From assembly GCF_963921235.1 (NCBI RefSeq), contig NC_086108.1, positions 93,436,001-93,500,000 on the forward strand: a stretch of 64,000 nt of DNA. The letters run 5' to 3'. The DNA comes from Mobula hypostoma. Taxonomy: Eukaryota. Made by a program: the position numbers and the translations under genes. How positions within the stretch are numbered: the first letter of the stretch is position 1; every line of letters begins with the position of its first letter. Below are positions 7,120-64,000 of this stretch, in pieces. The notes beneath the pieces were generated by a model. The model searched no databases. It had not been told where the DNA came from and saw only the letters and a program-made list of their open reading frames with translations.

Positions 7120-7550
7120 TTGATTTCTTTAACTTCCAGTAATTTATCACCCTCCCAATCGCTTTTATCTCCCCGTTCCCCACTCTAGCTCTCCTTTTTT
7201 CTCTTCTCTTCTCCTCACCTGCCTATCACCACTCCCTGCTGCCTCGGTCTTCCTTTTCTCTGATATTCCGCTCTCCTCTGTGGCCCTTTACGTTGTCCAT
7301 CTATTACCTCCCAGTTTCTCACTTCATCCCTCCCCCTTCCCCCACCTATCTGGCTTCATGTATTGCTTTCCAGCTTGTACTCCTTTCCCTCCCCCCCTCC
7401 ATCTTACTCTGGCTTCCATCCCCTTCCTTTCCAGTCCTGATGGAAGGGTCTCAGCTTGAAACGTTGATTGTTTATTCCTTTCCATAGATGCTGCCAAGTT
7501 CCTCCCGTATTTTGTATGTGTTACTTTGGATCTGAGCAATCTCGTGTTCA
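7120..7550 (+). mobile_element. Old Penelope-like 3' remnant with degenerate hammerhead motif
   Basis: C/T-rich UTR, cctgatggaagggtctcagcttgaaacgttga at about 7436-7467, then ccatagatgctgcc. Confidence 0.7.
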
Positions 7551-9999: not shown

Positions 10000-10485
10000 A
10001 CATCTTCGAGACAAGTAAACACAATATGCCAACATAAGGTCACCCTCATGGTGAAGAAGCAACATCTTATATTCCATCTGGTAGCCTCCAACCTGATGGG
10101 ACAAATATCAATTTCTCCTCCTGGTAAACCAATTCCACATCCCCCGACCTTCCTCTATTCACCACTCGGAACTTCCCCCTGGGTCCCGTCCTTCCCTTTC
10201 TCCTCTGGTCCACTCTCCTCTCCCATCAGATTCCTTCTTCTCCAGCCCTTGACCTTTCTCACACACCTGGCTTCACCTTTCATCTTCCAGCTAGCCTCCT
10301 TCCCTTCCCCCCACCTTTTTCTTCTGGCATCTTCCCCCTTCCTTCTTAGTCCTAAAGAAGGATCTCAGCCTGAAACATCGACTATCTATTCATTTCCATA
10401 GGTACTGCATGATCTGCTGAGTTTCTCCAGCATTTTGTGTGTGTGTTGCTTTGGACTTACCGCATCTGCAGACCTTCTCATGTTT
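10000..10485 (+). mobile_element. Old Penelope-like 3' remnant
   Basis: KKQHLIFHL, equivalent to EEQHLIFRL of the young family. Degenerate hammerhead cctaaagaaggatctcagcctgaaacatcgac at about 10351-10382. Confidence 0.75.
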
Positions 10486-14407: not shown

Positions 14408-15325
14408 AGAAACATAGAAAACCTACAGCACAATACAGGCCCTTCGACCCACAAGGCTGTGCCGAACATGTCCCTACCTTAGATCTACCTAGGCTTTACC
14501 CAGAGCCCTCTATTTTTCTAAGCTCCATGTAGCCATCCAGGAGCCTTTTAAAAGACCGTCTTTTCCGCCTCCACCACCAGCAGCAGCCCATTCCACGCAC
14601 TCTGTGCAAAAAAACTTACCCCTGACATCTCCTCTGTACCTGCTTCCAAACACTTTAAAACTATGTCCTCTTGTGCTGGCCATTTCAGCCCTGAGGAAAA
14701 GCCTCTATCCACATAATCAATGCCTCTCATCATCTTGTACACCTCTATCAAGTCTTATCCTCCGTCGCTCCAAGGAGACAAGGCCGAGTTCCCCAATCCA
14801 GGCAACGTCCTTGTCAATCTCCTCTGCACCCTTTCTATGGTTTCCATATCCTTCCTGTAGTGAGCCGACCAGAATTGAGCACAGTACTCCAAGTGGGGTT
14901 TGACCAGGGTCCTATATAGCTGCAACATTACCTCTCGGCTCTTAAACTCAATCCCACACTTGATGAAGGCCAATGCACCGTATACCTTCTTAACCACAGA
15001 GTCAACCTGCATAGCAGCTTCGACGTCGACTGCGCCTCTTCCTATAGATGCTGCTTGGCCTGCTGCGTTCACCAGCAACTTTGATGTATGTTAGCAGCTT
15101 TAACTGTCCTACGGACTTGGTCTCCAAGATCCCGCTGATTCTCCACACTGCCAAGGCTCTTACCTTTAATACCATATTCTGCCATCTATCTGACCTACCA
15201 AAATGAACCACCTCACACTCATCTGGGTTCAGCTCCATCTGCCACTTCTCAGCTCAGTTTTGCATCTTGTCAATGTCCCGTTGTAAGCTCTGACAGCCCT
15301 CCACGCTAACCACAACACCCCCAAC
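14408..15325 (-). mobile_element. CR1 LINE 3' fragment, interrupted by a Penelope mini-insert
   Basis: VMLQLYRTLVKPHLEYCAQFWSAHYRKD and MIEVYKMMRG remnants. Confidence 0.85.
15021..15091 (+). mobile_element. 71-bp Penelope-like terminal fragment with 9-bp TSD
   Basis: Near-identical to 63806-63875. TSD tagcagctt at 15012-15020 and 15092-15100. Confidence 0.85.
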
Positions 15326-15879: not shown

Positions 15880-16830
15880 GGGAAAGGAAATCAAAGCAAT
15901 GCTTAAAGACGGATTGCTGATCGCCGAGTAAAGCGTTAAATAAAATCAGCAAATCCACAGGACACTTATTTGCTCACGGGGAAGACGAGGATTTCGGAGT
16001 GGGTCCCGATGCCCATTCAGTCTTGGCAACCGGTGCAATCACATTCTTCTCAGCCGGAGGCGACTAGGCCGGCTTAAACCCACGGCCTTGAGTACTGGAG
16101 AGCAACCCAGCCCCGGCCTGTTGTTACTCGACCCAGATCCACGCATCCCGTACCTGTGCAGCGTGCCGCTTCTCCGGCGCCGGGCAAGTGCAAGCAGCAG
16201 CAGCACGGCGGTGGCCCCGAGAGCCGAGTTCCTCACCGTCAGGAGTTTGCTGAGAGCCGCCATGGCCGTGACCGGAGAGCGTCGCGAGCGTTGCCGGGAC
16301 CAACGTCACTCCGGCTGTCAATCAAAGCCGGCCGCCGCGCCGTCTGTCACCGCCGAGACATTGTTCCACCGGTGTGCAAATCAACGGGCCAAAAACACTC
16401 GCGAATAACGAGTTGCCCTCTTCCCCGAGTACTGGCTGTCCATGGTGCCGGGTTCCTGAGCAACACCAGCTGCAAATCCCGATTGCGTGCGTACATTATA
16501 AAGCAGCGTTGTGCAGTCCTGAGTTACATATTAAACATACTGCATGTGTGTATTTATTTTGCATTTCTTGTTTTGGTCGGCTCTGTATATGATGTGTAGA
16601 CCTGGAGAGCGGCCGTGGGGTGTGTGTGTCGGGGGGGGAGGGCGCTCAGCACAGCTTGAGGCCTTCAAACGTCGACGGAGAGTAGGGAATTCGAACGTCG
16701 CGATAATTTGATTTATATTTACTTTTCTATTAAAATCACTTGATATAAAGTTCATGGGACGAGGAAAGGTAAGAGAATTGGGGGCGTTTTGTGGCTGCTC
16801 TGCTCTTCGTCGGGGTCAGCTCGGTTTTCC
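15880..16830. promoter_or_regulatory. CpG island / promoter of ABCD3
   Basis: Dense CpG and high GC around ABCD3 exon 1 against a CpG-depleted background. Boundaries approximate. Confidence 0.8.
16154..16263 (-). CDS. ABCD3: ABCD3 (peroxisomal ABC transporter PMP70) coding exon 1, 110 nt
   Basis: Translates MAALSKLLTVRNSALGATAVLLLLALARRRRSGTLH, matching the recalled vertebrate ABCD3 N-terminus (MAAFSKYLTARNSSLAGAAFLLLCLLHKRRR). Kozak context GCC-ATG-G, donor CAG|GTACGG, inside a CpG island. Confidence 0.95.
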
Positions 16831-20065: not shown

Positions 20066-21437
20066 TGTCAAGTCAAGTCAAGTCAAGTCACTTTTTATTG
20101 TTATTTCATCCATAACTGCTGGTACAGAACATAGTAAAAATGAGACAACGTTTTCCAGGACCCTGGTGCTACATGAAACAATAAAAAAACTACACTGAAC
20201 TACATAAGAAAAAGCACAAAAACCACACTAGACTACAGACCTATCCAGGACTGCATAAAGTACACAAAACAGTGCAGGCAATATAATAAATAATAAACAA
20301 GACAATAGGCACAGTAGAGAGGGCAGTAGGTTGGTGTCAGTCCAGGCTCTGGGTATTGAGGAGTCTGATGACTTCGGGGAAGAAACTGTTACATAGTCTG
20401 GTCGTGACAGCCCGAATGCTTCGGTGCCTTTTTCCAGATGGCAGGAGGGAGAAGAGTTTATATGAGGGGTGTGTGGGGTCCTTCATAATGCTGTTTGCTT
20501 TGCGGATGCAGCGTGTGGTGTAAATGACTATGATAGCGGAAAGAGAGACCCCGATGATCTTCTCAGCTGACCTCACTATCCGCTGCAGGGTCTTGCGATC
20601 CAAGGTGGTACAATTTCCGAACCAGGCCGTGATGCAGCTGTTCAGGATGCTCTCAATACAACCTCTGTAGAATATGGTGAGGATGGGGGGTGGAAGATGG
20701 ACTTTTCTCAGCCTTCGCAGAAAGTAGAGACACTGCTGGGCCTTCTTTGCTATGGAGCTGGTGTTGAGGGACCACGTGAGATTCTCCGTCAGATGAACAC
20801 CAAGAAATTTGGTGCTCTTAACGATCTCTACGGAGGAGTCGTCGATGTTCAGCGGAGAGTGGTCGCTCCGTGTCCTCCTGAAGTCAACAACCATCTCCTT
20901 TGTTTTGTTCACATTCAGAGACAGATTGTTGGCTCTACACCAGTCCATTAGCCGCTGTACTTCCTCTCTGTATGCTGACTCATCATTCTTGCTGATGAGA
21001 CCCACCACGGTCGTGTCATTGGCGAACTTGTTGATGTGGTTCGAGCTGTGTGTTGCAGCACAGTCGTGGGTCAGCAGAGTGAACAGCAGTGGACTGAGCA
21101 CACAGCCCTGGGGGGCCCCCGTGCTCAGTGTGATGGTGTTGGAGATGCTGCTTCCAGTCCGGACTGACTGAGGATCCAGTTACAGAGGGAGGTGTTCAGG
21201 CCCAGCAGGCTCATCTTTCCAATCAGTTTCTGAGGAATGATTGTGTTGAATATTGAACTGAAGTCTATGAACAGCATTCGAACGTACGTGTCTTTTTTGT
21301 CCAGGTGGGTTAAGGCCAGGTGGAGGGTGGTGGCGATGGCGTCGTCTGTTGAACGGTAGGGACGGTACACGAACTGCAGGCGGTCCAGTGAGGGGGGCAG
21401 CAGGGACTTGATGTGCCTCATTACAAGCCTCTCCAAG
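20066..21437 (-). mobile_element. Young 5'-truncated Rex/Babar-like LINE (RT C-half) with (GACTT)n tail
   Basis: ORFs 21125-21436 and 20337-21101 ([45 protein letters not shown]). Confidence 0.92.
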
Positions 21438-22015
21438 TGTTAGAGGCACATAATAAAGTAGGCCAAAATCAGCATGGTTTCCTTAAGGAAAAACTTTGCC
21501 TGACAAACCTTTTGGAATTATTTGAGGAAATAACAAGCAGGATAGACAAAGGAGAATCAGAGAATTCTCTGCTTAATAAGATAAAAGCTCATAGTATTAC
21601 AAGAAAGATACTTGCATGGATAGAAGATTGGATGACTGGCAGGAAGGAAACAATGGGAATAAAGGGGGCCTTTTCTGGTTGGCTGCTGGTGATTAGTGGT
21701 GTGCCACAGGGCTTGTTTTTGGGATCGCTTCTTTTCATGTTATATGTCAATGATTTGGGTGAAGAATTGATGGCTTTGTGGTTAGGTCTGCGGATAATAT
21801 GAAAATAGGTGGAGGGGAAGACATGTTGAGGAAGAAGGGAGTCTGCAGAAGAACTTAGATAGATTGGAAGAATAGGCAAAGAAGTGGCAGATGGAATATA
21901 GTGTAGGAAAGTGTATGGTCATGCACTTTGGTAGAAGGAATTAAGGTGAAGACTGCTTTCCAAACGCAGTGAACATTCAAGATCTCAGTGGTGCAAATGG
22001 ACTTGAGAGTCCTTG

Positions 22016-22244
22016 CAACACACATCAAAGTTGCTGGTGAACACAGCAGGCCAGGCAGCATCTCTAGGAAGAGGTACAGTTGACGTTTCGGGCCAAGGCC
22101 CTTCGTCAGGAGTTAGTCCTGACAAGGGTCTCAGCCCGAAATGTCGACTGTACCTCTTCCTAGAAATGCTGCCTGGCCTGCTGCGTTCACCAGCTACTTT
22201 GATGTGTGTTGCTTGAAATTCCAGCATCTGCAGATTTCCTCGTG
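22016..22244. mobile_element. Palindromic mini Penelope-like insertion (two inverted terminal fragments) with 14-bp TSD
   Basis: Arms 22016-22111 (-) and 22112-22244 (+). TSD cttgagagtccttg at 22002-22015 and cttgggagtccttg at 22245-22258. Confidence 0.88.
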
Positions 22245-23278
22245 CTTGGGAGTCCTTGTGCAGGATTCCCTGAAGGTTAACTTGCAGGTTGAGTCAGTGG
22301 TGAGGAAGGCAAATGCAATTTTAGCATTCATTTCAAGAGGACTAGAATATAAGAGCAAGGATGTAATGCTGAGGATTACTAAGGAATTGTTCAGATTGCA
22401 CTTGGAGTATTTCGAACAGTTTTGGGCACCTTATCTAAGAAGAGATGTGCTGGCATACGAGACGGTCTAGAGGAGGTTCACGAGAATTATTCTGGGAATG
22501 AAAGGGTTAACATATGAGTAGTGCCTAATGGCTCTCAGCCTGTACTTGCTGGAGTTTAGAAAAATGATTGGGGATATCACTGAATCCTGAATATTGAAAG
22601 GCCTAGATAGAGTGGATGCGGAAAAGATGTATCCTATATTGGGCGAGTCTAGGACCATTGGACACAGCTTCAGAAGAGAGAGGTTCCCATTTAGAACAAA
22701 GATAAGGAGAAATTTCTTTAGCCAGAGGGTGGGGAATCTGGAGAAGTCATTAATTCATTGCCACAGTTGGCCGTGGATACTAAGTTATCAAGTATATTTA
22801 AAGCGGAGATGAACAAGTTCTTGATTAGTCAGGGTGTTAAAAGTTACAGGGAGAAGACACAAGAATGGAGTTGAGCGGGATAATAAACCAGCCATGATGG
22901 AATGGTGGAGCAGACTCGATGGGCTGAATGGCCTAATTCTGCACCTATGTCTTGTGTTCTTATGGTCATATCAAATATTCTCAAACTCCAAATGAAATGC
23001 AGCTGGTGTCATGGCTTCTTTGTAAGTGCCATAAATGCTGGACCCAGGATAGATCGTTAGAGATGTTGACACCCAGGAACTTGAAACTGCTCACCCTTCC
23101 CACTGCTGATCACCCGATGAGGACACACCAATCCTCATTTACTGTAAAATGTTCCCAATCCTTCGGCCAACTGTGATTCATAGCAACTTCATAAGCCTCT
23201 CCCTTTAATTTAATGCAATTCTCAGTCAACCACAAAGCACGCTTCCTGTCCGGGTTCTGATTCTGAAAGAAATAGATT

Positions 23279-26683: not shown

Positions 26684-27852
26684 GATTCAGAATCGGGTTT
26701 AGTATCACTAGCATTTGTTATGAAATTGGTTGTTATGCGGCAGCTATACATTGTCATACATAATAATAAAAACTATAAATTACAGTATATAGTATTAAGG
26801 AAGTTAAATTAAATAAGAGGTACAAAAAGAGGGAAAAAAGGTAGTGAGATAGTGTTAACACAAGGAATTCTGCAGATGCTGGAAATTCAAGCAACACACA
26901 TCAAAGTTGCTGGTGAACGCAGCAGGCCAGGCAGCATCTCTAGGAAGAGGTACAGTCGACATTTCAGGCTGAGACCCTTCGTCAGGACTAACTGAAGGAA
27001 GAGCTAGTAAGAGATTTGAAAGTGGGAGGGGAAGAGGGAGATCCAAAATGATAGGAGAAGACAGGAGGGGGAGGGATGGAGCCAAGAGCTGGACAGGTGA
27101 TTGGCAAAAGGGGTATGAGAGGATCATGGGACAGGAGGCCCGGGGAGAAGGAAAAGGGGGAGGGGGGGAAAAAGCCTAGAGGATGGGCAAGGGGTATAGT
27201 CAGAGGGCCAGAGGGAGAAAAAGGAGAGTGAGAGAAAGAATGTGTGTATATAAATAACGGATGGGGTACGAGGGGGAGGTGGGGCATTAGCGGAAGTTAG
27301 AGAGGTCAATGTTCATGCCATCAGGTTGGAGGCTACCCAGACGGAATATAAGGTGTTGTTCCTCCAACCTGAGTGTGGCTTCATCTTTACAGTAGAGGAG
27401 GCCGTGTCAGAATGGGAATGGGATGTGGAATTAAAATGTGTGGCCACTGGGAGATAATGAGGTAGTGTTCATGGGTTCACTGTCCATTCAGAAATCTGAT
27501 GGCAGAGGGGAAGAAGCTGTTCCTGAATCACTGAGTGTGTGCCTTCAGGCTCTATACCTCCTTCCTGATGGTAACAGTGAGAAGACAGCGTGTCCTGGGT
27601 GATGGGGGTCCTTAATGATGGATGCCTCCCTTTTAAGGCATCGCTCCTTGAAGATGTCCTGGATGCTGGGGAGGCTGGTGCCTGTGATGGAGCTGACAGA
27701 GTTTACAACTATCTGCAGATTATTTTAATCCTGTGCAGTGGCCCACCCTTATCAGATGGTGTTGCGGCCAGTTCGAATGCTCTCTACGGTACACCTGTAA
27801 AAGTTTGTGAGTGTCTTCAGATCTTCTCAAACTCCTAATGAACTATAGCCAC
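26684..27852 (-). mobile_element. Rex/Babar-like 3' fragment interrupted by a Penelope-like fragment
   Basis: Host motifs cattcagaaatctgatggcagaggggaagaagctgttcctgaatc. Confidence 0.75.
26857..27454 (-). mobile_element. Young Penelope-like 3' fragment with hammerhead motif at 26954-26989
   Basis: Highly similar to 61641-62245. Imperfect TSD tagtgagatagtgtt / taatgaggtagtgtt. Confidence 0.88.
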
Positions 27853-31696: not shown

Positions 31697-34440
31697 CATA
31701 AGACCAGTAGATATAGGATCAAAATTAGGCCATTTGGCTTATTATGTCTGCTCTGCCATTCAATCATGGCTGATCCTTTTTTCTCCTCCTCAGCCCCACT
31801 CCCCATAACCTTTGATGACATGTCCAATCAAGAACCTATCAAACTTTGCCTTAAATATACCCAACGACCTGGCCTCCACAGCTCCCTCTGGTAATAAATT
31901 CCACAAGTTCACCATTCTCTGGCTGAAGAAATTTCTTTGCATCTCTGTTTTAAATGGATGCCCCCCTATCCTGTGTCTGTGCCCTCTTGTCCTAGACTCC
32001 CCCACCATGGGAAACATCCTTTCCACATTTACTCTGTCTGGGCCTTTCAACATTTGAAAGGTTTCAATGAGATCCCCCCTCATCCTTCTAAATTCCAGCG
32101 ATTACAGACCCAGAGCTATCAAACGTTCCTCATATAATAACCCTTTCATTCCCAGTGGCAGGTCTCATCAGCAAGAACGATGAGTCAGCATACAGAGAGG
32201 AGGTGCAGCGGCTAATGGACTGGTGCAGAGCCAACAACCTGTCTCTGAATGTGAACAAAACAAAAGAGATGGTTGTTGACTTCAGGAGGACACGGAACGA
32301 CCACTCTCCACTGAACATCGACGACTCCTCCGTAGAGATCGTTAAGAGCACCAAATTTCTTGGTGTTCATCTGGCAGAGAATCTCACCTGGTCCCTCAAC
32401 ACCAGCTCCATAGCAAAGAAAGCCCAGCAGCGTCTCTACTTTCTGCGAAGGCAGAGAGAAGTCCATCTCCCACCCCCCATCCTCAACACATTCTACAGAG
32501 GTTGTATTGAGAGCATCCTGAGCAGCTGCATCACTGCCTGGTTCAGAAATCGCACCATCTCGGATTGCAAGATCCTGCAGTGGATAGTGAGGTCAGCTGA
32601 GAAGATCGTTGGGGTCTCTCTTCCCACTATTAGAGACATTTACACCACACGCTGCATCCGTAAAGCAAACAGCATTATGAAGGATCCCACGCACCCCTCA
32701 TACAAACTCTTCTCCCTCCTGCCATCTGGAAAAAGGCACCGAAGCATTCGGGCTTTCACGACCAGACTATGTAACAGTTTCTTCCCCCAAGTCATCAGAC
32801 TCCTCAATACCCAGAGCCTGGACTGACACCAACCTACTGCCCTCTACTGTGCATATTGTGTTGTTTATTATTTATTGTAATGCCTGCACTGTTCTGTGCA
32901 CTTTATGCAGTCCTGGGTAGGTCTATAATCTTGTGTAGTTTTCTGTTGTTTTTTACGTAGTTCAGTGTAGTTTTTGTATTGTTCATGTAGCACCATGGTC
33001 CTGAAAAACATTGTCTCATTTTTACTGTGTACTGTACCAGCAGTTATGGTCGAAATGACAATAAAAAGTGACTTGACTTGACTTGACTTGATCATTCGTG
33101 AACCTCCGCTGAACCCTCTTACATGAGAAGCCCAAAACTGTTCACAATACCCAAGGTGAGGTCTCACCAGTGCGTTATAAATTCTCAGCATCACATCTCT
33201 GCTCTTATATTCTAGACCTCTTGAAATGAATACTAACATTGCATTTGCCTTCCTCACCACTGACTCTACCTACAAGTTAACCTTTAGGGTGTTCTGCACA
33301 AGGACTCCCAAGTTGTTTTGCATTTCGGAATTTTGGATTTTCTCCCCATTTAGAAAATAGTCTACATATTTATTTCTACTACCAAGGTGCATGACCATGC
33401 ATTTTCCAACATTATATTTCATTTTCCACTTTTTTGCTCATTCTCCTAATCTGTCTAAGTCCTTCTGCAGTCTGCCTGTTTCCTCAATACTACCTGCCGC
33501 TCCACCAATCTTTGTATCATCTGTAAACTTGGCAACAAAGCCATCTGTTCCATCACTAAATCATTGATGTACACCATAAAAAGAAGTGGTCTCAACACCG
33601 ACCCCTGCAGAACATCACTAGTCACTGGCAGCCAATCAGAAAAGGATCCATTTGTTCCCACTCACTGCCTGCTACCAATCAGCCAATGCTCTAACCATAC
33701 TAGTAACTTCCCTGTAATACCGTGGGCTCTTAACTTGGTAAGCTGCCTCACTTGTGGCACCTTGTCATAAGCCTTCTGAAAGTCCAAATATACAACATCC
33801 ACTGCATCCCCTTTATCTATCCTACGTGTAATCTCCTCAAAGAATTCCAACTGGTTCATCAGGTAAGATTTTCCCTTCGGAAATCATGTTGGCTTTGTCC
33901 TATCTTGTCTTGGGACATCAAGTACTCCATAACCTCATCCTTAACAATTGACTCTAACATCTTTCCAACCACTGAGGTCAGGCTAACAGATCTATAATTT
34001 TCTTTCTGCTGCCTTCTTCCTTTACTTAAAGAGTGGAGTGATATTTACAATTTTCCAGTCCTCTGGAACCATGCCAGAGTCCAATGATTTTTAAAAGATC
34101 GCTACTAATCCCTCCACAATCTCTACTGCTACTTCTTTCAGAACGCTAGGGTGCAGTTCATCTGGTCTGGGTGACTTATGCACCCTAAGGTTTTTCAACT
34201 TTTTAAGCACTTTCTCCCTTGTAATAGTAACTGCACTCACTCCTCTTCCCTCAAACCCTTCAACATCTGGCACACTGCTAGTGTCTTCCACAGTAAATAT
34301 ACTCATTTATTTCATCTGCCATCACCTTTCACTATCCACTTCGATGTTGTTTGCTAGCTTGTTTTCATGTTTCATCTTTTCCCTCCTAATAATACTTTTA
34401 GTTGCTCTCTGTAGGTTTTTAAAAGCTTCCCAATCCTAAT
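31697..34440 (-). mobile_element. CR1 LINE (RT) interrupted by a Rex/Babar copy
   Basis: KSPRPDELHPSVLKE, YLDFQKAYDKVP, RPHLGYCEQFW and RGDLIETFQML segments. Confidence 0.9.
32154..33090 (+). mobile_element. Young Rex/Babar-like LINE 3' fragment with (GACTT)n tail
   Basis: ORF 32155-32826 is nearly identical to 20337-21101. Confidence 0.92.
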
Positions 34441-37099: not shown

Positions 37100-38610
37100 C
37101 TGGTGGCATCCGTTAGTCTCTCGAGACCATGGATCTACGCCTGGAAAGTCTAGCTTCAGTCTGTGTTAGAGCAGAGTCTGTTGTGGCTGTAGAGGCCCAC
37201 ACGGGAGTGACGGTCTCGGCTACAGCGACTGCACTTGGAGGCGCTGTCCTCCAGTGTTGTCTTGGTGCTGTTTTTCCGACGAGTGTGCTTTTCTTCAGCA
37301 GCAAGCCTCAGCTTCTCTTCTCCTCTTTTCAGACGTCTGCGTAGTTCCAGCCTCCAGTGAGAGCCATCGCTTGCGATGTCCTCCCACTTCTCAATGTTCA
37401 TGTTCAGTGACTTCATGTCTCTCTTGCAGACATCTTTGAAATGAAGATGGGGCTGCCCTTGTGCTCTCTTGCCGGAGGCCAGTTCCCCGTACAGCAGGTC
37501 TTTCGGGATCCTCCCGTCTGACATGCGGTGTACGTGGCCCAGCCAGCGGAGACGGCGTTGTTGGAGCAGGGTGAAGAGGCTGGGTATCTGGGTGCAGGCC
37601 AGGACCGCATAGTTGGTGACTCGGTCAGTCCACATGATGTCCAGGATGCCTCTCAGGCTGCGAAGGTGGAAGGCGTTGAGACGCCGCTCTTGTCTGTAGT
37701 AGAGGCTCCAGGTCTCGCTGCCGTAAAGCAGTGTGCTGAGGACGCAGGCCCTGTAGACTGCAACTTTGGTGTGTGTCGTCAGCTTTCTGTTCTCCCAGAC
37801 TCTGTTTGTCAGCCTGGCAAATGTTGAGGCTGCTCGTCCGATCCGTCTGTTGATCTCGGGGTCTAGGGAGAGACTGTCCGTGATGGTGAAGCCAAGGTAT
37901 GTAAACTCGTGAACTACCTCCAGCTCGTAGTTGTTAATGGTAATGGCAGGGGGGTGCTCAACACCTTGGCCCAACACATTGGTCTTCTTCAGGCTCTTGA
38001 GAAGCTGTCCATGAGGCGTTGCAGTTGCTCTTCAGAGTGTGTTGCCAGTGCCGCATCGTCTGCAAACAACATGTCCCTGATGAGTAGTTCGCGAACCTTG
38101 GTTTTCGCCCTCAGCCGGGACAGACTGAACAGCCTCCCATCCGATCTGGTGTGGAGGTAGACACCATCAGTTGATGTTCCAAATGCGTGCTTCAGCATGA
38201 CTGTGAAGAAGATGCCGAACAGGGCGGGGGCAAGCACACAGCCCTGCTTCACACTGCTGCTGATGTTGAAGGCCTCTGAAGAAGAGCCGTCAAACTGAAC
38301 GACTCCCTTCATGCCTGTGTGGAATGGCTGAACTATCCTGAGGAGCCTCGGGGGACAACCAATCCTGGCAAGGATTTTGAACAGACTGTCTCTGCTCACA
38401 AGGTCGAAGGCAATGAAAGCGGCATAGAGTGGTTGTCTTTGCATTGTTGGGAAGGTCTTCGCCCACGTGGTCCTGAACAGACTGCAGAAAATAGCCGAAA
38501 GGGTATATCCCGAGTCTCAGTGCGGCTTCAGGTCAGAACGCTCCACAGTCGACATGATCTTCTCCCTTCGACAGCGACAAGAGAAATGCAGAGAGCACAG
38601 ACAACCACTC
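37100..38610 (-). mobile_element. RTE-clade LINE 3' portion with inverted 5' segment (38442-38610)
   Basis: VKQGCVLAPALF, MLFADDAAL, FTYLG, LLYGSETW, RLRWLGHVHRM, PKDLLYGEL. Confidence 0.92.
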
Positions 38611-54282: not shown

Positions 54283-54541
54283 ATGTTGCGACAGACTGGA
54301 AGTAATAAACGTGGTTTAGGTTTCTCCCGTTTATCCAGTTCAAATTTCTTTGTGTTGCCCAGCTCAGGAAACTGGAGTATGGGCCGAAGTGTCAAGAGTG
54401 GTTCTGTCAGCAGCATCAGCTCTAACTCAGACTGTTATGACAATCCAGTTGTGGATCCAGAATACATAATGCAGTTGGTGAATGATGTCAGGAAGTTTGC
54501 AGATGTACTGGAGCATTTGAAAGAAGCCTTTCTTTCAGGAG
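54283..54541 (+). CDS. ARHGAP29: ARHGAP29 (Rho GTPase-activating protein 29) first coding exon; full exon 54196-54541
   Basis: ...SISSNSDCYDNPVVDPEYIMQLVNDVRKFADVLEHLKEAFLS resembles recalled human SLSSNSIFDPDYIKELVNDIRKFSHMLLYLKEAIFS. In-frame TAA upstream (54208-54210), phase-1 donor G|gtaggt. Head-to-head with ABCD3, as recalled for human 1p22. Confidence 0.88.
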
Positions 54542-55074
54542 GTAGGTTATTTATTTAATGTTCATCCGTGAATTTCCTGTGAATAAGCTTGCTTTAATGA
54601 TTTGAAGCAAGCAGTATAGAAATAGTGACAACTTTGGAAGTAGCAACTCAACCAAAGCCAAAATACTGCTTAAGTTGTTACTTGTGTTCTTGTACAGAGA
54701 AACCTTTCCCTAAAGCAAAATGTTCCTTTAGCCTTGTAGATGCTTTGATCATTCAACTTGTCACCATTCATAAAATTAACTCGTTATTTGTTCAATCCCT
54801 GGATATGGGCTTTACTGAAAGAGTCACATTCCTAGATGCCTTGAGAAGGAGGGGTTTTGAACCACAGAAGTTTCTTAAGTGGTGAAGGTGGCTCCCACTG
54901 TGTTGTTGCCAAGAAATTTTGAGGTATTTTGTTCAGCAGTGATTGAAGAATGCTGATTAAATGTTCAGATCTGAATGGTATGGGTTTTGGGAGCCAGAGC
55001 ACCATTTGTGTATGTTTTAAAATGTAATGGATGTTGTGAACTTTGACTGCGTTACCCGAATAATGTGCAGTATA

Positions 55075-56406
55075 CAGGTGTCCCCCGCTTTTCGAACATT
55101 CGCTTAACGGAACCTCACTGTTACAAAAGACCTACATTAGTTCCCTGTTTTCGCTAACAGAAGGTGTTTTCACCGTTACGAAAGAAGGCAGCACGCGCCC
55201 CGAGCAGCCGCTCACCCCCGGATTCGGAACGGCATTCTCGCCGGCATTGCTTAAACACGTTCCTGTGAGCAGCCGTTTGTAAGATGAGTTCTAAGGTATC
55301 GGAAAAGCCTAAAAGAGCTCGTAAGGGTGTTACACTTAGTGTAAAACTAGACATAATAAAGCGTTTTGATCGTGGTGAACGAAGTAAGGACAAATTGAGT
55401 TTGGCTTGTGGAAGTTGACGAAGATGATGTTGAAGAGGTTTTGACATCCCATGACCAAGAACTGATAGATGAAGAGCTGATGCAATTGGAAGAGGAAAGG
55501 ATAACAATCGAAACCGAATGCAGTAACGAACGGGCCGCGGACAGATACCGATTTGCGGAGAATGCAGCGGTGACTGGAACGCACTCAGCACATCTTTAAG
55601 AAAAAAACCGAAATAAACATGCTAATTAATTAGGTGCCGCCCGGCACATAATTGTCAGCCCAAATCAGAGGCGACGCAATCGCCTCTGATCTGGGCCAAC
55701 ATTTACGTGCCGGGTGGCACCTAATTAATTAGCTTGTTTATTTCGGCTTTTTTCTTAAAGATGTGCTGGATGCGTCCCGGCCACCGCTGCACCCCTGCAT
55801 GCTTTGCGAATCGGTATCGGTCGGCAGCCCGGAGGGTGGGGGCCACTGCACCACCCAAACTCTGACGACTCAGTCTAAGACACCATCATCAGTGTGCTTG
55901 GCAAGCTGTCTTCCCAATTCCCGTAAATGATACTACACTGTACATACATTATTTCTACTTTATATCGGCTGTATATTTTTACATGTTATTTGGTATGATT
56001 TGGCAGCTTCATAGCTTAAAGGTTACTGGAGAGCGCTTGAGTGAGATTTTCTGCCGAGAGCACTTGCACCGTGTTTGTGCCGATGGCACTTGCGCCGTGA
56101 TTTTGCCAACAGCACTTGCGTGAGATTTTCGCTACGGTGGACAGTGCGGCCATGATTGTGGAAAAGTATTTCTACTTTATATAGACCGTGTATTTATCAT
56201 ATCATATTCCTCCTTTTACTACATGTTACTGTTATTTTAGGTTTTATGTGTTATTTGGCATGATTTGGTAGGTTATTTTTGGGTCTGCGAATGCTCACAA
56301 ATTTTTCCCATATAAATAAATGGTAATTGCTTCTTCGCTTTACGACATTCCGGCTTACGAACCGTTTCATAGGAACGCTGTACCTTCGGATGGTACGGGA
56401 AACCTG
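55075..56406 (+). mobile_element. Internally deleted Tigger/pogo DNA transposon
   Basis: TA-flanked TIRs caggtgtcccccg / cgggaaacctg. Transposase N-terminal remnant from 55284 (MSSKVSEKPKRARKGVTLSVKLDIIKRFDRGERSKD) and C-terminal EVDEDDVEEVLTSHDQELIDEELMQLEEE. Confidence 0.85.
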
Positions 56407-57450: not shown

Positions 57451-58727
57451 TTCCAAGTATAAAGGTTTGTTTGGTGTCGTGATTTTTTAAATTAAAATTC
57501 CTATACCCATTAAAATAAGCAGGTAATAGTAATGCCAAACATCATAATTTTGCAATAAGGAATTGCAAAACATCAACTTTAAAGAAATAATAAAAATAAT
57601 TTAGCACTCCCATCTTCCCCCCTCCCCACCCCCTACTTTTACTGCTATTGCTTTCCTCTTTCTTATTTCTGGTGATCATTAACATGTTTAACAGTTTCTT
57701 TCCATAACTGCTGCTTGCAAGATTGTTTCCAACATATTCTGTTTTTATTTCTAATTGCCAGCATCTGCAGTTTTTTGATTTCCAGAAATCCCCTAGTTTC
57801 CCAGTAAATATAACATAATAACTGAGATTGGATAGCCCTGGGGAGAGTTGATCATGGTGTTCATTTATCGTGTCTACAAGAAAAGAATCTTTCTTTTTTG
57901 CTATTATATCACTCTTTCCAGCAAGCTTTCCAACCATGAACTAAACTACCTCTTCTGAATCGTACAGAATGCCTTATGCGTTTGTAGGTTCTTCCACTCT
58001 TCCCCAATGCTGTTTCTTGACTTCGAATTTAAATATCTATATTTTTGCTTCTGCTCTGACGCTGGTTTAGTGTACACAAGCAGGTATTATATATGTAATC
58101 TCAGCAGTGGGTGTTTAACTTATCTATATTTCAGCAGAATAGGAATGCAAAATTTGCCCTTGGTTGTGTATTTAATGAGTTTGCTCACCTAGTTCTCTTG
58201 GGAAATTAATGATACTATAAAATATCCAAAAGCCTGTGTGGCGTAACATAGAATTGTTCTGCCACAATGGTACCATTTAGCCCATCAAATGTATGTCACT
58301 TGTTTCAAAGCAATCTGTTCAGATCCATTCCTTGCTATTTTCCTATAACCCTTCAAGCTGATTTCCCCCACTGCCTGCCAAACCAGTTCCCATTTGAAAG
58401 TATTGAAATTTGAAAGATTGGCAATATTGGCGCCACACTTAATCAGTAAGTTTTAGATCAATATTGCTTTGCATTCTTAAAATGGTTTTTGCTTGCGTTC
58501 TCCCTGCAGTTTTTCACTACTTTCCAAATCCTTGGATTACTGGCTAAACTTCACATGATCTTGTATAGCACCATCAAATAACCTTCCAGTTTATTTGCTA
58601 AAATTGAAGCAATTCTGGTTTCTTCAGCTTCAGTTTTTATCTAGAATATCTCAAATCTGGTACTAAATCTCATAAATCCATTTTTATTACCCTCTAAGGC
58701 ATTCATGTAATTCTGAAAGTCAAAGCA

Positions 58728-58950
58728 AGACACACAAAATACTGATGGAACTCAGCAAATCGGGCAGCATCCATGGAAATGAATAAACAGTCAACATTTC
58801 AGGCCAAAACCTTCCATCAGGACTGGAAAGGAAGTTGGGGAAGAAGCCAGAATAAGAAGGTGGGGGGGGGGAAGAGGACAAATTAGAAGATGATAGGTGA
58901 AACCGGGGTGGGGTGAAGTAAGAAACTGGAAGGCAATATGTTAAAAAGGT
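58728..58950 (-). mobile_element. Old Penelope-like 3' remnant
   Basis: cagtcaacatttcaggccaaaaccttccatcaggactgg is an antisense degenerate hammerhead. Confidence 0.7.
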
Positions 58951-60534: not shown

Positions 60535-61030
60535 CTGATGTAATTGTACAGTGGAGAGCATTCTAACTGGCTGCATCACCGTCTGGTATGGGGGAGGAGG
60601 GGGGAGACACTGCACAGGATCGAAATAAGGTGCCTAAAGTTGTAAACTCAGTCAGCTTCATCATGGGCACTAGTCTCCCCAGCATCCAGGATATCTTCAA
60701 GGAACAATACCGCCTAAAGGCTGTATCCACCATTAAGGAATCCAGTCACCCAGGACATGCCCTTTTCTCATTGATGCCATCAGGGAGGAGGTGCAGGAGC
60801 CTGAAGGCACACATTCAATGATTCAGGAATAGCTTCTTCTCTGCCATCAGATTTTTGAATAGATATTGAACCTATGAATACCACCCTTCTGCTTTTTTTT
60901 CCTCTTTTTGAACTACATGTTTAATTTAACACACATATACATATTCTGTAATATATCATTATTTATGCAGTGTACTGCTGTAATATAACAACAAATTTCA
61001 TGGCATATGCCAGGGGTAATAATTCTGATT
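60535..61030 (+). mobile_element. Rex/Babar-like 3' fragment
   Basis: gagagcattctaactggctgcatcacc...SHPGHALFSLMPSGRR. Confidence 0.8.
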
Positions 61031-61640
61031 CACAGTATTTGGTTTTGTGGTGTTTTGGAATGCCTAGATCTGTCACTTGTATAGTTTCTATGTTGAAGCT
61101 TATGCTTTTGAAAAATATATTCTTGGGATTTGGAAGAACTTCATTTAATAAGCATTTGTTATTAACTTGTAGAATGTAGTTGGGGACTTTTGACGATATA
61201 TTATTGCAGTGTTCTTCCACTATGCCTTTCCACGATTTTGACATGGAGAAAATGAAGTATCTACATCGCAATACTAATCCCACAATATCAGACAGACCTC
61301 CACAGCAGTTTTGTGGGTTGTCCAAAGAGTCTGGGTCTTGATGCTTTGTTTCCCTCTTGGCTATTCCCACATCTCAGATCAATTGTTTGAGGAAGGGCCC
61401 TAGCCATGATCTGTACTAATTTACATAATGCACAAAAGTACTTCTGTGTAACAGAGTTTAAGGTTAATTTTGCTTTATGTGGCAAAACTTTGAAATTTAT
61501 AGTATTTAATTTGTCACATTTTTCATGTTCATCACCAGTAATGTTGCACTTGGTAGTGCCAAAATGTTAAAAATCAGTTAATATTTTAGATAATTTTACT
61601 AAATTAAATATTATAGGAACATAAACATAGTTTGGCCAAA

Positions 61641-63877
61641 CAACAGGAATTCTGCAGATGCTGGAAATTCAAGCAACACACATCAAAGTTGCTGCTGAAC
61701 GCAGCAGGCCAGGCAGCATCTGTAGGAAGAGATGCAGTCGATGTTTCAGGCCGAGACCCTTCGTCAGGACTAACTGAAGGAAGAGTGAGTAAGGGATTTG
61801 AAAGTTGGAGGGGGACGGGGAGATCCAAAATGATAGGAGGAGACAGGAGGGGGAGGGATAGAGCCAAGAGCTGGACAGGTGATAGGCAAAAGGGGATACG
61901 AGAGGATCATGGGACAGGAGGTCTGGGAAGAAAGACCCGGGGGGGGGGGTACCCAGAGGATGGGCAAGAGGTATATTCAGAGGGACAGAGGGAGAAAAAG
62001 GAGAGTGAGAGAAAGAATGTGTGTGTAAAAATAAGTAACAGATGGGGTACGAGGGGGAGGTGGGGCCTTAGCGGAAGTCAGAGAAGTCGATGTTCATGCC
62101 ATCAGGTTGGAGGCTACCCAGACGGAATATAAGGTGTTGTTCCTCCAACCTGAGTGTGGCTTCATCTTTACAGTAGAGGAGGCCGTGGATAGACATGTCA
62201 GAATGGGAATGGGATGTGGAATTAAAATGTGTGGCCACTGGGAGATCCTGCTTTCTCTGGCGGACAGAGCGTAGATGTTCAGCAAAGCGGTCTCCCAGTC
62301 TGCGTCGGGTCTCGCCAATATATAAAAGGCCACATCGGGAGCACCGGACGCAGTATATCACCCCAGTCGACTCACAGGTGAAGTGTTGCCTCACCTGGAA
62401 GGACTGTTTGGGGCCCTGAATGGTGGTAAGGGAGGAAGTGTAAGGGCATGTGTAGCACTTGTTCCGCTTACACGGATAAGTGCCAGGAGGGAGATCAGTG
62501 GGGAGGGATGGGGGGGATGAATGGACAAGGGAGTTGCGTAGGGAGCGATCCATGCAGAATGCAGAGAGAGGGGGGGAGGGAAAGATGTGCTTAGTGGTGG
62601 GATCCCGTTGGAGGTGGCGGAAATTACGGAGAATAATATGTTGGACCCGGAGGCTGGTGGGGTAGTAGGTGAGGACCAGGGGAACCCTATTCCTAGTGGA
62701 AATTCCTCCGTCTCTGCCGCATCTGCTCTCAGGATGAGGCTTTTCATTCTAGGACGAGGGAGATGTCTTCCTTTTTTAAAGAAAGGGGCTTCCCTTCCTC
62801 CACTATCAACTCTGCTCTTAAACACATCTCCCCCATTTCACGTACATCTGCTCTCACTCCATCCTCCCGCCACCCCACTAGGAATAGGGTTCCCCTGGTC
62901 CTCACCTACCACCCCACCAGCCTCCGGGTCCAACATATTATTCTCCGTAACTTCCGTCACCTCCAACGGGATCCCACCACTAAGCACATCTTTCCCTCCC
63001 CCTCTCTCTGCATTCCGCAGGGATCGCTCCCTACGCAACTCCCTTGTCCGTTTGTCCCCCCCATCTCTCCCCACTGATCTCCCTCCTGGCACTTATCCGT
63101 GTAAGCGGAACAAGTGCTACACATGCCCTTACACTTCCTCCCTTACTACCATTCGGGGCCCCAAACAGTCCTTCCAGGTGAGGCAACACTTCACCTGTGA
63201 GGTGGCTGGGGTGATATGCTGTGTCCGGTGCTCCCGATGTGGCCTTTTATATATTGGCGAGACCCGACGCAGACTGGGAGACCGCTTTGCTGAACATCTA
63301 TGCTCTGTCCGCCAGAGAAAGCAGGATCTCCCAGTGGCCACACATTTTAATTCCATATCCCATTCCCATTCTGACATGTCTATCCACGGCCTCCTCTACT
63401 GTAAGGATGAAGCCACACTCAGGTTGGAGGAACAACACCTTATATTCCGTCTGGGTAGCCTCCAACCTGATGGCATGAACATCGACTTCTCTAACTTCCG
63501 CTAAGGCCCCACCTCCCCCTCGTACCCCATCCGCTTTTTATTTATATACACACATTCTTTCTCTCTTTCTCCTTTTTCTCCCTCTGTCCCTCTCACTTGG
63601 TTCCCCCCCCCCTTTTCTTTCTCCCCAGGCCTCCTGTCCCATGATCCTCTCGTATCCCCTTTTGCCTATCACCTGTCCAGCTCTTGGCTCTATCCCTCCC
63701 CCTCCTGTCTTCTCCTATCATTTCGGATCTCCCCCCCCCCTCCAACTTTCAAATCCCTTACTCACTCTTCCTTCAGTTAGTCCTGACGAAGGGTCTCGAC
63801 CTGAAACGTCGACTGCGCCTCTTCCTACAGATGCTGCCTGGCCTGCTGCGTTCACCAGCAACTTTGATGTGTGTTGC
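61641..63877. mobile_element. Penelope-like (Neptune-type GIY-YIG) inverted-dimer insertion with 15-bp TSD
   Basis: Arms 61641-62699 (-) and 62700-63877 (+) both encode CKRNKCYTC...CVRCSRCGLLYIGETRRRLGDRFAEH. TSD catagtttggccaaa at 61626-61640 and 63878-63892. Confidence 0.93.
63779..63814 (+). ncRNA. Minimal type-I hammerhead ribozyme motif (Penelope-associated)
   Basis: aguc-CUGACGA-aggGUCUCGAccu-GAAA-C-GUC^gacu: both core boxes, stem I (aguc/gacu), stem II (agg/ccu) and palindromic ACGU as minimal stem III. Confidence 0.75.
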
Positions 63878-64000
63878 CATAGTTTGGCCAAATTGTTTTT
63901 GAACTATTTAACTCTGAATGAGTAATTAGACGACATTGCTCACATAATTTGGTTTGAACTGTCACTTTTTGGCTAAATGAAAGGTATACCTGCGAAAGGG

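What the first reader, a model, noticed from the sequence alone, without database searches (positions are those of the whole stretch)
61626..63892. 2.2-kb palindromic Penelope-like insertion: two diverging GIY-YIG arms inside a single 15-bp TSD
Seen: a minus arm (61641-62699) and a plus arm (62700-63877) face outward from a junction at about 62700. About 1 kb is mutually complementary around a unique spacer of about 175 nt, and the whole is bounded by one perfect TSD (catagtttggccaaa), indicating one integration event. The arms differ by scattered substitutions and indels. Established: Penelope-like elements can form inverted pseudo-LTR structures. Inference: in ARHGAP29 pre-mRNA this would fold into a ~1-kb dsRNA hairpin (ADAR or Dicer substrate) that would also sequester the hammerhead.
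Basis: partly seen in the sequence, partly recalled or inferred. Interest (0 to 1): 0.7.

Follow-up and report, generated by a model that had tools for sequence, protein, structure and literature searches.

The report
Ordinary head-to-head Penelope retroelement insertion
Two shortened copies of a very common jumping gene sit back to back in an intron of a ray gene; this is the published, usual way such elements insert, and here the two copies were probably made from two different RNA molecules.

Summary
Two 5'-truncated copies of a Neptune-type Penelope-like element (PLE), at 61641-62699 (-) and 62701-63877 (+), lie head to head inside one exact 15-bp target-site duplication (TSD), in the intron after the first coding exon of ARHGAP29. 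An inverted truncated copy with a one-sided 30-40-nt tail is the published PLE layout (PMC8557442, PMC3846280). A second, 229-bp example lies at 22 kb in this window, and this scan noted several elsewhere in the genome. Best mechanism: both nicked target strands primed reverse transcription, at the element's two start sites (PMC11167929), and the two cDNAs were joined. Simple fold-back does not fit, because the longer arm lacks the tail and the junction has no complementarity. The arms differ at 48 of 1003 positions, mostly neutral decay. At a few sites each arm carries a different common family allele, which favours two RNA templates but does not prove it. The RNA hairpin folds in silico but has no support as a function. 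The central junction and the empty site were not confirmed by reads. Ordinary.

The parts
61626..61640 (+). left copy of the 15-bp target-site duplication; its last 4 nt also fit the element's own 3' end
   Evidence: family contigs keep aligning to 61637 (table 7)
61641..62699 (-). left arm: 5'-truncated PLE copy of 1059 nt (linker, Zn-finger, GIY-YIG, 3' region, hammerhead motif, tail)
61641..61672 (-). 32-nt tail, present on this arm only
   Evidence: 562 contigs of X1 and 541 of X5 have loose ends at 61637
61736..61771 (-). minimal hammerhead motif of the left arm, antisense to the host gene; the palindrome of stem III is lost by one substitution
   Evidence: own pattern match; no Rfam match
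62068..62699 (-). open remnant of the PLE ORF with C-X4-C-X2-C and GIY-YIG
62700..62700 (.). single base at the head-to-head junction that fits neither arm's continuation
   Evidence: (loose ends before 62701)
62701..63877 (+). right arm: 5'-truncated PLE copy of 1177 nt, without tail; frameshift by a 2-nt gap near 62998; 21-nt gap in the 3' region
62701..62874 (+). extra 5' part of the right arm (region after the RT core); the loop of the palindrome
63779..63814 (+). minimal hammerhead motif of the right arm, core intact, in the host's sense
63878..63892 (+). right copy of the target-site duplication
54283..54543 (+). host context: first coding exon of ARHGAP29
22002..22258 (.). comparison: second, miniature head-to-head insertion of the same family (22016-22244) with a 14-bp TSD (1 mismatch) and a one-sided tail

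Best explanation
One insertion event of a Neptune-type PLE. The endonuclease nicked the two target strands 15 bp apart. Each 3' end primed reverse transcription. The top strand started at the outer start site, helped by 4 nt of match, and gave the tailed left arm. The bottom strand started at the inner start site, without a match, and gave the tail-less right arm. Both cDNAs stopped early (1059 and 1177 nt) and were joined end to end with one extra base; fill-in produced the TSD. The two primers probably copied two RNA molecules from closely related source copies. The result is a dead, decaying intronic repeat with no role of its own. Shown here: anatomy, TSD, tail asymmetry, junction, family. 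From the literature: cutting and extension of both strands, two start sites and a predicted dimer, all for a Poseidon-clade element. Inferred: the order of steps, the joining, and two templates.
For: One exact TSD outside and none inside. The tail-less end falls at the same place, within 1-2 nt, in the right arm, the 22-kb pair and the 15-kb solo copy; the tailed end is shared by the left arm, the 22-kb pair and the 27-kb solo copy and by hundreds of contigs. PMC11167929 reports both strands cleaved and extended, and two start sites that define the tail. Two templates: among displayed sites where the second family allele has 25-75% of X1 depth, the arms agree at 13 of 19 and differ at 6. Three of the six are neither CpG-type nor at a low-depth homopolymer edge (61976, 62035, 62367); P(3 or more of 16) = 0.013-0.039 under decay alone. 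At two transversion sites (61976, 62028) the left arm agrees with an independent copy, P0001 (read at protein level), and the right arm with the 27-kb copy.
Against: Differences in the ORF look neutral (7 synonymous, 13 non-synonymous; p = 0.19-0.44), so most arose after insertion and say nothing on templates. The excess in the 3' region (p = 0.003) is not significant after dropping 10 substitutions beside gaps (p = 0.11). Only 40 of 128 variant rows were displayed and depth shares are rough. Site 61976 borders the right arm's 21-nt gap. Three of the four informative sites fall within 60 nt, which a later gene-conversion tract would also explain. No listed contig bridges the central junction; the left junction is crossed by only 20 nt, below the tool's 31-nt rule. 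The biochemistry cited is from another PLE clade.
Confidence: 0.62

Rival explanations
1. One event with double priming, but a single RNA (or identical RNAs) was copied twice; the discordant sites come from hypermutable positions or from later gene conversion by another family copy.
For: The arms share 13 of 19 family-polymorphic sites, including minority alleles at 61860, 61924 and 62473. ORF differences are neutral. The discordant sites cluster in a low-complexity 3' region.
Against: Discordant alleles are each shared with independent copies. One discordant site (62367) lies about 330 nt from the cluster. RNA already paired with the first cDNA would have to be freed for the second primer (inference).
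Confidence: 0.22
2. Self-priming or fold-back: one cDNA, or an antisense template as proposed in PMC3846280, looped back and copied itself to make the second arm.
For: The published model for head-to-head PLE structures (PMC3846280, passages). The layout looks like a stem with a 175-nt loop.
Against: The arm that holds the loop is tail-less, so copying it cannot supply the other arm's 32-nt tail. The end of the long arm has no complementarity to the place where the short arm begins. The arms differ at family-polymorphic sites.
Confidence: 0.07
3. Two successive insertions: the right arm came first, and the left arm later landed exactly at its 5' junction with a very short duplication of its own.
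For: The three bases 62700-62702 equal the last three bases of the TSD, and 62700-62704 equal the target across the right TSD edge. Different templates would be expected.
Against: The other TSDs of this family here are 9-15 bp. Two of the three bases are ordinary element sequence. The same layout recurs at 22 kb; 2 of 4 young insertions in the window are head to head.
Confidence: 0.07
4. Assembly or library fold-back artefact.
For: No listed contig spans the central junction. PMC8557442 notes that such structures trouble assemblies.
Against: The arms differ by 4.8% and three gaps, only one has the tail, and a perfect TSD frames the unit; a chimeric read would give near-identical arms. A contig of X1 matches 60940-61660 without a difference, though X1 may be the assembly's own sample.
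Confidence: 0.02

Closest known systems
Inverted insertion units of endonuclease-positive Penelope-like elements (PMC8557442 Fig. 2 text and legend; Pen2a_Av in PMC3846280; D. virilis Penelope in PMC2377424; passages read)
   Same: An inverted 5'-truncated copy directly at the 5' end, one TSD around the whole unit, a 30-40-nt tail at one end only, and a hammerhead motif near the 3' end.
   Different: Here both copies are truncated to the endonuclease region, with no tandem or full ORF. No palindrome or overlap at the junction, unlike the rotifer cases described.
Poseidon element of Anolis carolinensis in vitro (PMC11167929, main text read)
   Same: Two reverse-transcription start sites whose spacing defines the tail; both target strands cut and extended.
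   Different: Another clade (no linker Zn-finger). The paper does not show formation of head-to-head products.
L1 twin priming (10.1101/2024.08.27.596794, passages read)
   Same: Both target nicks prime cDNA and the cDNAs join, which leaves an inversion inside one TSD.
   Different: In L1 the second primer lands internally on the same RNA, so the arms do not repeat each other. Here both primers start at the 3' end region and the arms are duplicates.

Membership tests
Endonuclease-positive PLE | GIY-YIG endonuclease C-terminal to an RT | tested here: met
   GIY-YIG in both arms. The RT is lost here by truncation, but relatives at 51-68% identity carry RVT_1 (below Pfam's cut-off) N-terminal to GIY-YIG (3 of 7 relatives scanned).
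Endonuclease-positive PLE | CCHH motif with cysteines between the GIY and YIG parts | tested here: met
   Cysteines between the two half-motifs and conserved downstream histidines in the alignment; definition from PMC8557442.
Endonuclease-positive PLE | TSD, 5' truncation, optional 30-40-nt tail, inverted adjacent copy | tested here: met
Endonuclease-positive PLE | minimal type I hammerhead motif near the 3' end | tested here: met
   Stem I, core, stem II and cleavage triplet found by my own pattern in 3 of 5 copies tested, in line with PMC4209133. Rfam gives no match. Activity not tested.
Endonuclease-positive PLE | RT groups with PLE and telomerase RTs in a tree | not tested
   No RT in this insertion; no tree built.
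Neptune/Nematis clades | CX2-5CxxC Zn-finger in the linker before GIY-YIG | tested here: met
   C-X4-C-X2-C in both arms; absent in Penelope/Poseidon according to PMC8557442.
Neptune versus Nematis | RT phylogeny and linker length | not tested
   Neptune is preferred only because Neptune elements are reported from fishes (PMC4209133).
L1-type twin-priming inversion | non-overlapping arms from one RNA, second primer internal | tested here: not met
   The arms repeat each other over 1003 positions and both reach the 3' end region.

The most novel reading that the evidence does not exclude
Head-to-head PLE insertions are made by a dimer or by two ribonucleoproteins acting on both target nicks, each with its own RNA and start site. 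This would explain the inversion and the one-sided tail together and replace the antisense self-priming model. This ray genome, with its very large family, would allow a direct genome-wide test from subfamily-discordant arms.
Probability: 0.5. Interest if true: 0.45.

Novelty: new member of a known kind. Interest (0 to 1): 0.2.

Why it matters
As a single locus it matters little: a dead repeat in a long intron. Its value is as one data point on an open question, how PLE inverted insertions form. Its tail position, blunt junction and discordant alleles argue against fold-back and lean towards two primers on two RNAs. I found no paper that states a two-template model for PLEs in two searches (Penelope, twin priming, head-to-head; Penelope, inverted repeat, two templates, retrotransposon, second-strand). 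The library lacks most subscription papers, among them Arkhipova 2006, which defines the tail and which I did not see.

Tried and rejected
No whole genome is held for this window, so no genome-wide count of palindromic copies was possible. Rfam: 0 matches at gathering score in the window and 2 chance-level matches in 61500-64000. No RNA holder listed; runs X9 and others are only guessed to be RNA, and all are contigs. Editing: places with A>G or T>C were 16 and 18 in X9 against 16 and 20 in DNA run X1; this mixes all family copies and says nothing either way. Empty site: organism B (X5) shows one listed flank contig (60940-61152, 1 difference) and thin cover, so presence or absence of the insertion there is open. 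The laid stretch was 60940-62900, so most of the right arm and the right flank were not examined with reads. Synonymous-excess test for two templates: negative. Clustering of substitutions (17 close neighbours against 6.4 expected, 0 of 20000 shuffles) was set aside because gaps inflate it. Folding of the 3' ends alone was not better than shuffles (z 0.80 and -1.61). Pfam scan of 104 further frames found no second ARHGAP29 exon. Look-ups of earlier findings by sequence and by nearby place gave nothing. Supplements of the papers were not opened; Fig. S1-S2 of PMC11167929 may bear on start-site use.

Full report
Observation. The repeat search finds the 15-nt direct repeat at 61626-61640 and 63878-63892 and inverted blocks that cover both arms around a 175-nt centre. 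The word occurs twice in 64 kb; a chance match within 20 nt of both ends has a probability of about 1.5e-6. The arms align over 1003 pairs with 48 substitutions and three gaps. The left arm runs 32 nt further at its 3' end. The centre is the right arm's own 5' extension: its frame continues into the arm and matches relatives.

Identity. The left arm has an open frame with GIY-YIG (E=1.1e-4). A search among longer proteins gave 9 hits among 451 candidates; the 8 that carry names are from sharks and rays, the best at 94% identity (P0001, Mobula hypostoma). Three of 7 relatives scanned carry a weak RVT_1 match N-terminal to GIY-YIG. Both arms have C-X4-C-X2-C before the nuclease and cysteines inside it, the Neptune/Nematis signature of PMC8557442 (passages). 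A minimal hammerhead pattern lies about 60 nt before the tail-less end; its core is intact in the right arm. Summed contig depth in run X1 is 15-38 over the unique flank and 1.4-9.6 million over the element. That is no copy number, but it shows a very large family.

Host. The frame at 54283-54540 matches residues 1-87 of a 1319-aa ray ARHGAP29 at 97%, and nothing else of that protein is in the window. The insertion therefore lies about 7 kb into the following intron, on the assumption that the gene continues beyond the window; the right arm is in the host's sense.

It is not unique. The window holds four young insertions of the family: this one, a 229-bp head-to-head pair at 22016-22244 with a 14-bp TSD (1 mismatch), a tailed solo copy at about 26857-27455 (15-bp TSD, 2 mismatches) and a tail-less 70-bp copy at 15023-15092 (9-bp TSD). 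Both pairs have the tail on one arm only, and the tail-less ends coincide within 1-2 nt. PMC8557442 describes exactly this: an inverted 5'-truncated copy at the 5' end and a 30-40-bp tail often at one end only (passages). PMC3846280 describes it with a 9-bp TSD and a 31-bp tail (first fifth and passages). Earlier AI notes of this scan report like pairs elsewhere in this genome; they are unchecked and are not counted as support.

Mechanism. PMC11167929 (main text) shows a Poseidon protein cutting and extending both target strands, with two start sites that bound the tail, and predicts a dimer. The anatomy here fits one primer at each site. At the tailed end, family contigs align 4 nt into the TSD (to 61637), so the primer could pair with the RNA; the tail-less end has no such overlap. 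At the centre, 359 contigs of X1 have loose ends before 62701, which marks the right arm's truncation; base 62700 fits neither arm. Fold-back needs the loop-bearing arm to be made first and copied. That arm has no tail to copy, and its end is not complementary to the point where the second arm starts. In the 22-kb pair the tail is on the longer arm, so fold-back is not excluded there.

One or two templates. Against two distant templates: ORF differences are neutral (7 synonymous of 20), and the arms share 13 of 19 sites at which the second family allele has 25-75% of X1 depth, where 10.2 would be shared by random draws (36 displayed rows in the left arm, 2 polymorphic ones dropped because they fall in the right arm's gap, 88 of 128 rows not displayed). 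For two close templates: they differ at 6 of those 19. After setting aside one CpG-type site and two at a low-depth homopolymer edge, 3 of 16 remain, against P = 0.013-0.039 under decay at 3.2-4.8%; X5 gives similar shares at these three (51%, 41%, 66%). At 61976 and 62028 the left arm agrees with P0001 and the right arm with the 27-kb copy. Gene conversion and hypermutable sites remain possible, so I put two templates at about 2 in 3, and a single event at about 0.9.

Hairpin. The + strand of 61641-63877 folds with 978 inter-arm pairs, the longest helix 289 bp, and the hammerhead fully paired. This is a consequence of the geometry. No read evidence on editing or small RNAs was available. Single metazoan minimal hammerheads showed no detectable cleavage in vitro (PMC4209133, passages), and hammerhead mutants did not affect insertion in vitro (PMC11167929). 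That inverted repeat pairs in introns are common editing substrates is recalled knowledge and makes the case generic.

Verdict. Real, a new instance of a published insertion pattern. Interest 0.2, for its modest bearing on how such insertions form.

Noticed in passing
window 22002-22258: Miniature head-to-head insertion of the same family inside another repeat; the turn lies at the 5' edge of the hammerhead motif, and the tail is on the longer arm.
   Followed up: partly
window 62700-62704 and 63890-63894: The first five bases after the left arm equal the target sequence across the right TSD edge. This may be chance, or a trace of the right arm's cDNA end annealing to the target before the second priming.
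   Followed up: partly
window 15012-15100: 70-bp tail-less solo copy with a 9-bp TSD; its 5' junction reads as a 10-bp palindrome, perhaps a minute inverted arm.
   Followed up: partly
window 26842-27469: Tailed solo copy of about 600 bp on the minus strand with a 15-bp TSD (2 mismatches), inserted in an older repeat.
   Followed up: partly
window 10041-10485, 7302-7528, 58715-58940: Older, more distant relatives of the family (70-80% identity); no TSD found by the script.
   Followed up: partly
window about 16100-16260, minus strand: A GC-rich frame starting with Met that I recall as resembling the first exon of ABCD3, which would lie head to head with ARHGAP29; the name is recalled and comes from no call.
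   Followed up: no
window 20068-21008 and 32155-33091: Inverted pair of another repeat, 941 bp at 92% identity, 11 kb apart.
   Followed up: no
window 37159-38516, minus strand: Long frames that look like the RT and C-terminal region of an RTE-type LINE (by eye).
   Followed up: no
window 55269-55600: Frame with a CENP-B N-terminal DNA-binding match (E=3e-4), probably a Tigger/pogo-type transposon remnant.
   Followed up: no
P0002, P0007: Annotated host proteins of rays whose predicted isoforms include sequence of this element, probably annotation chimeras or exonised copies.
   Followed up: no
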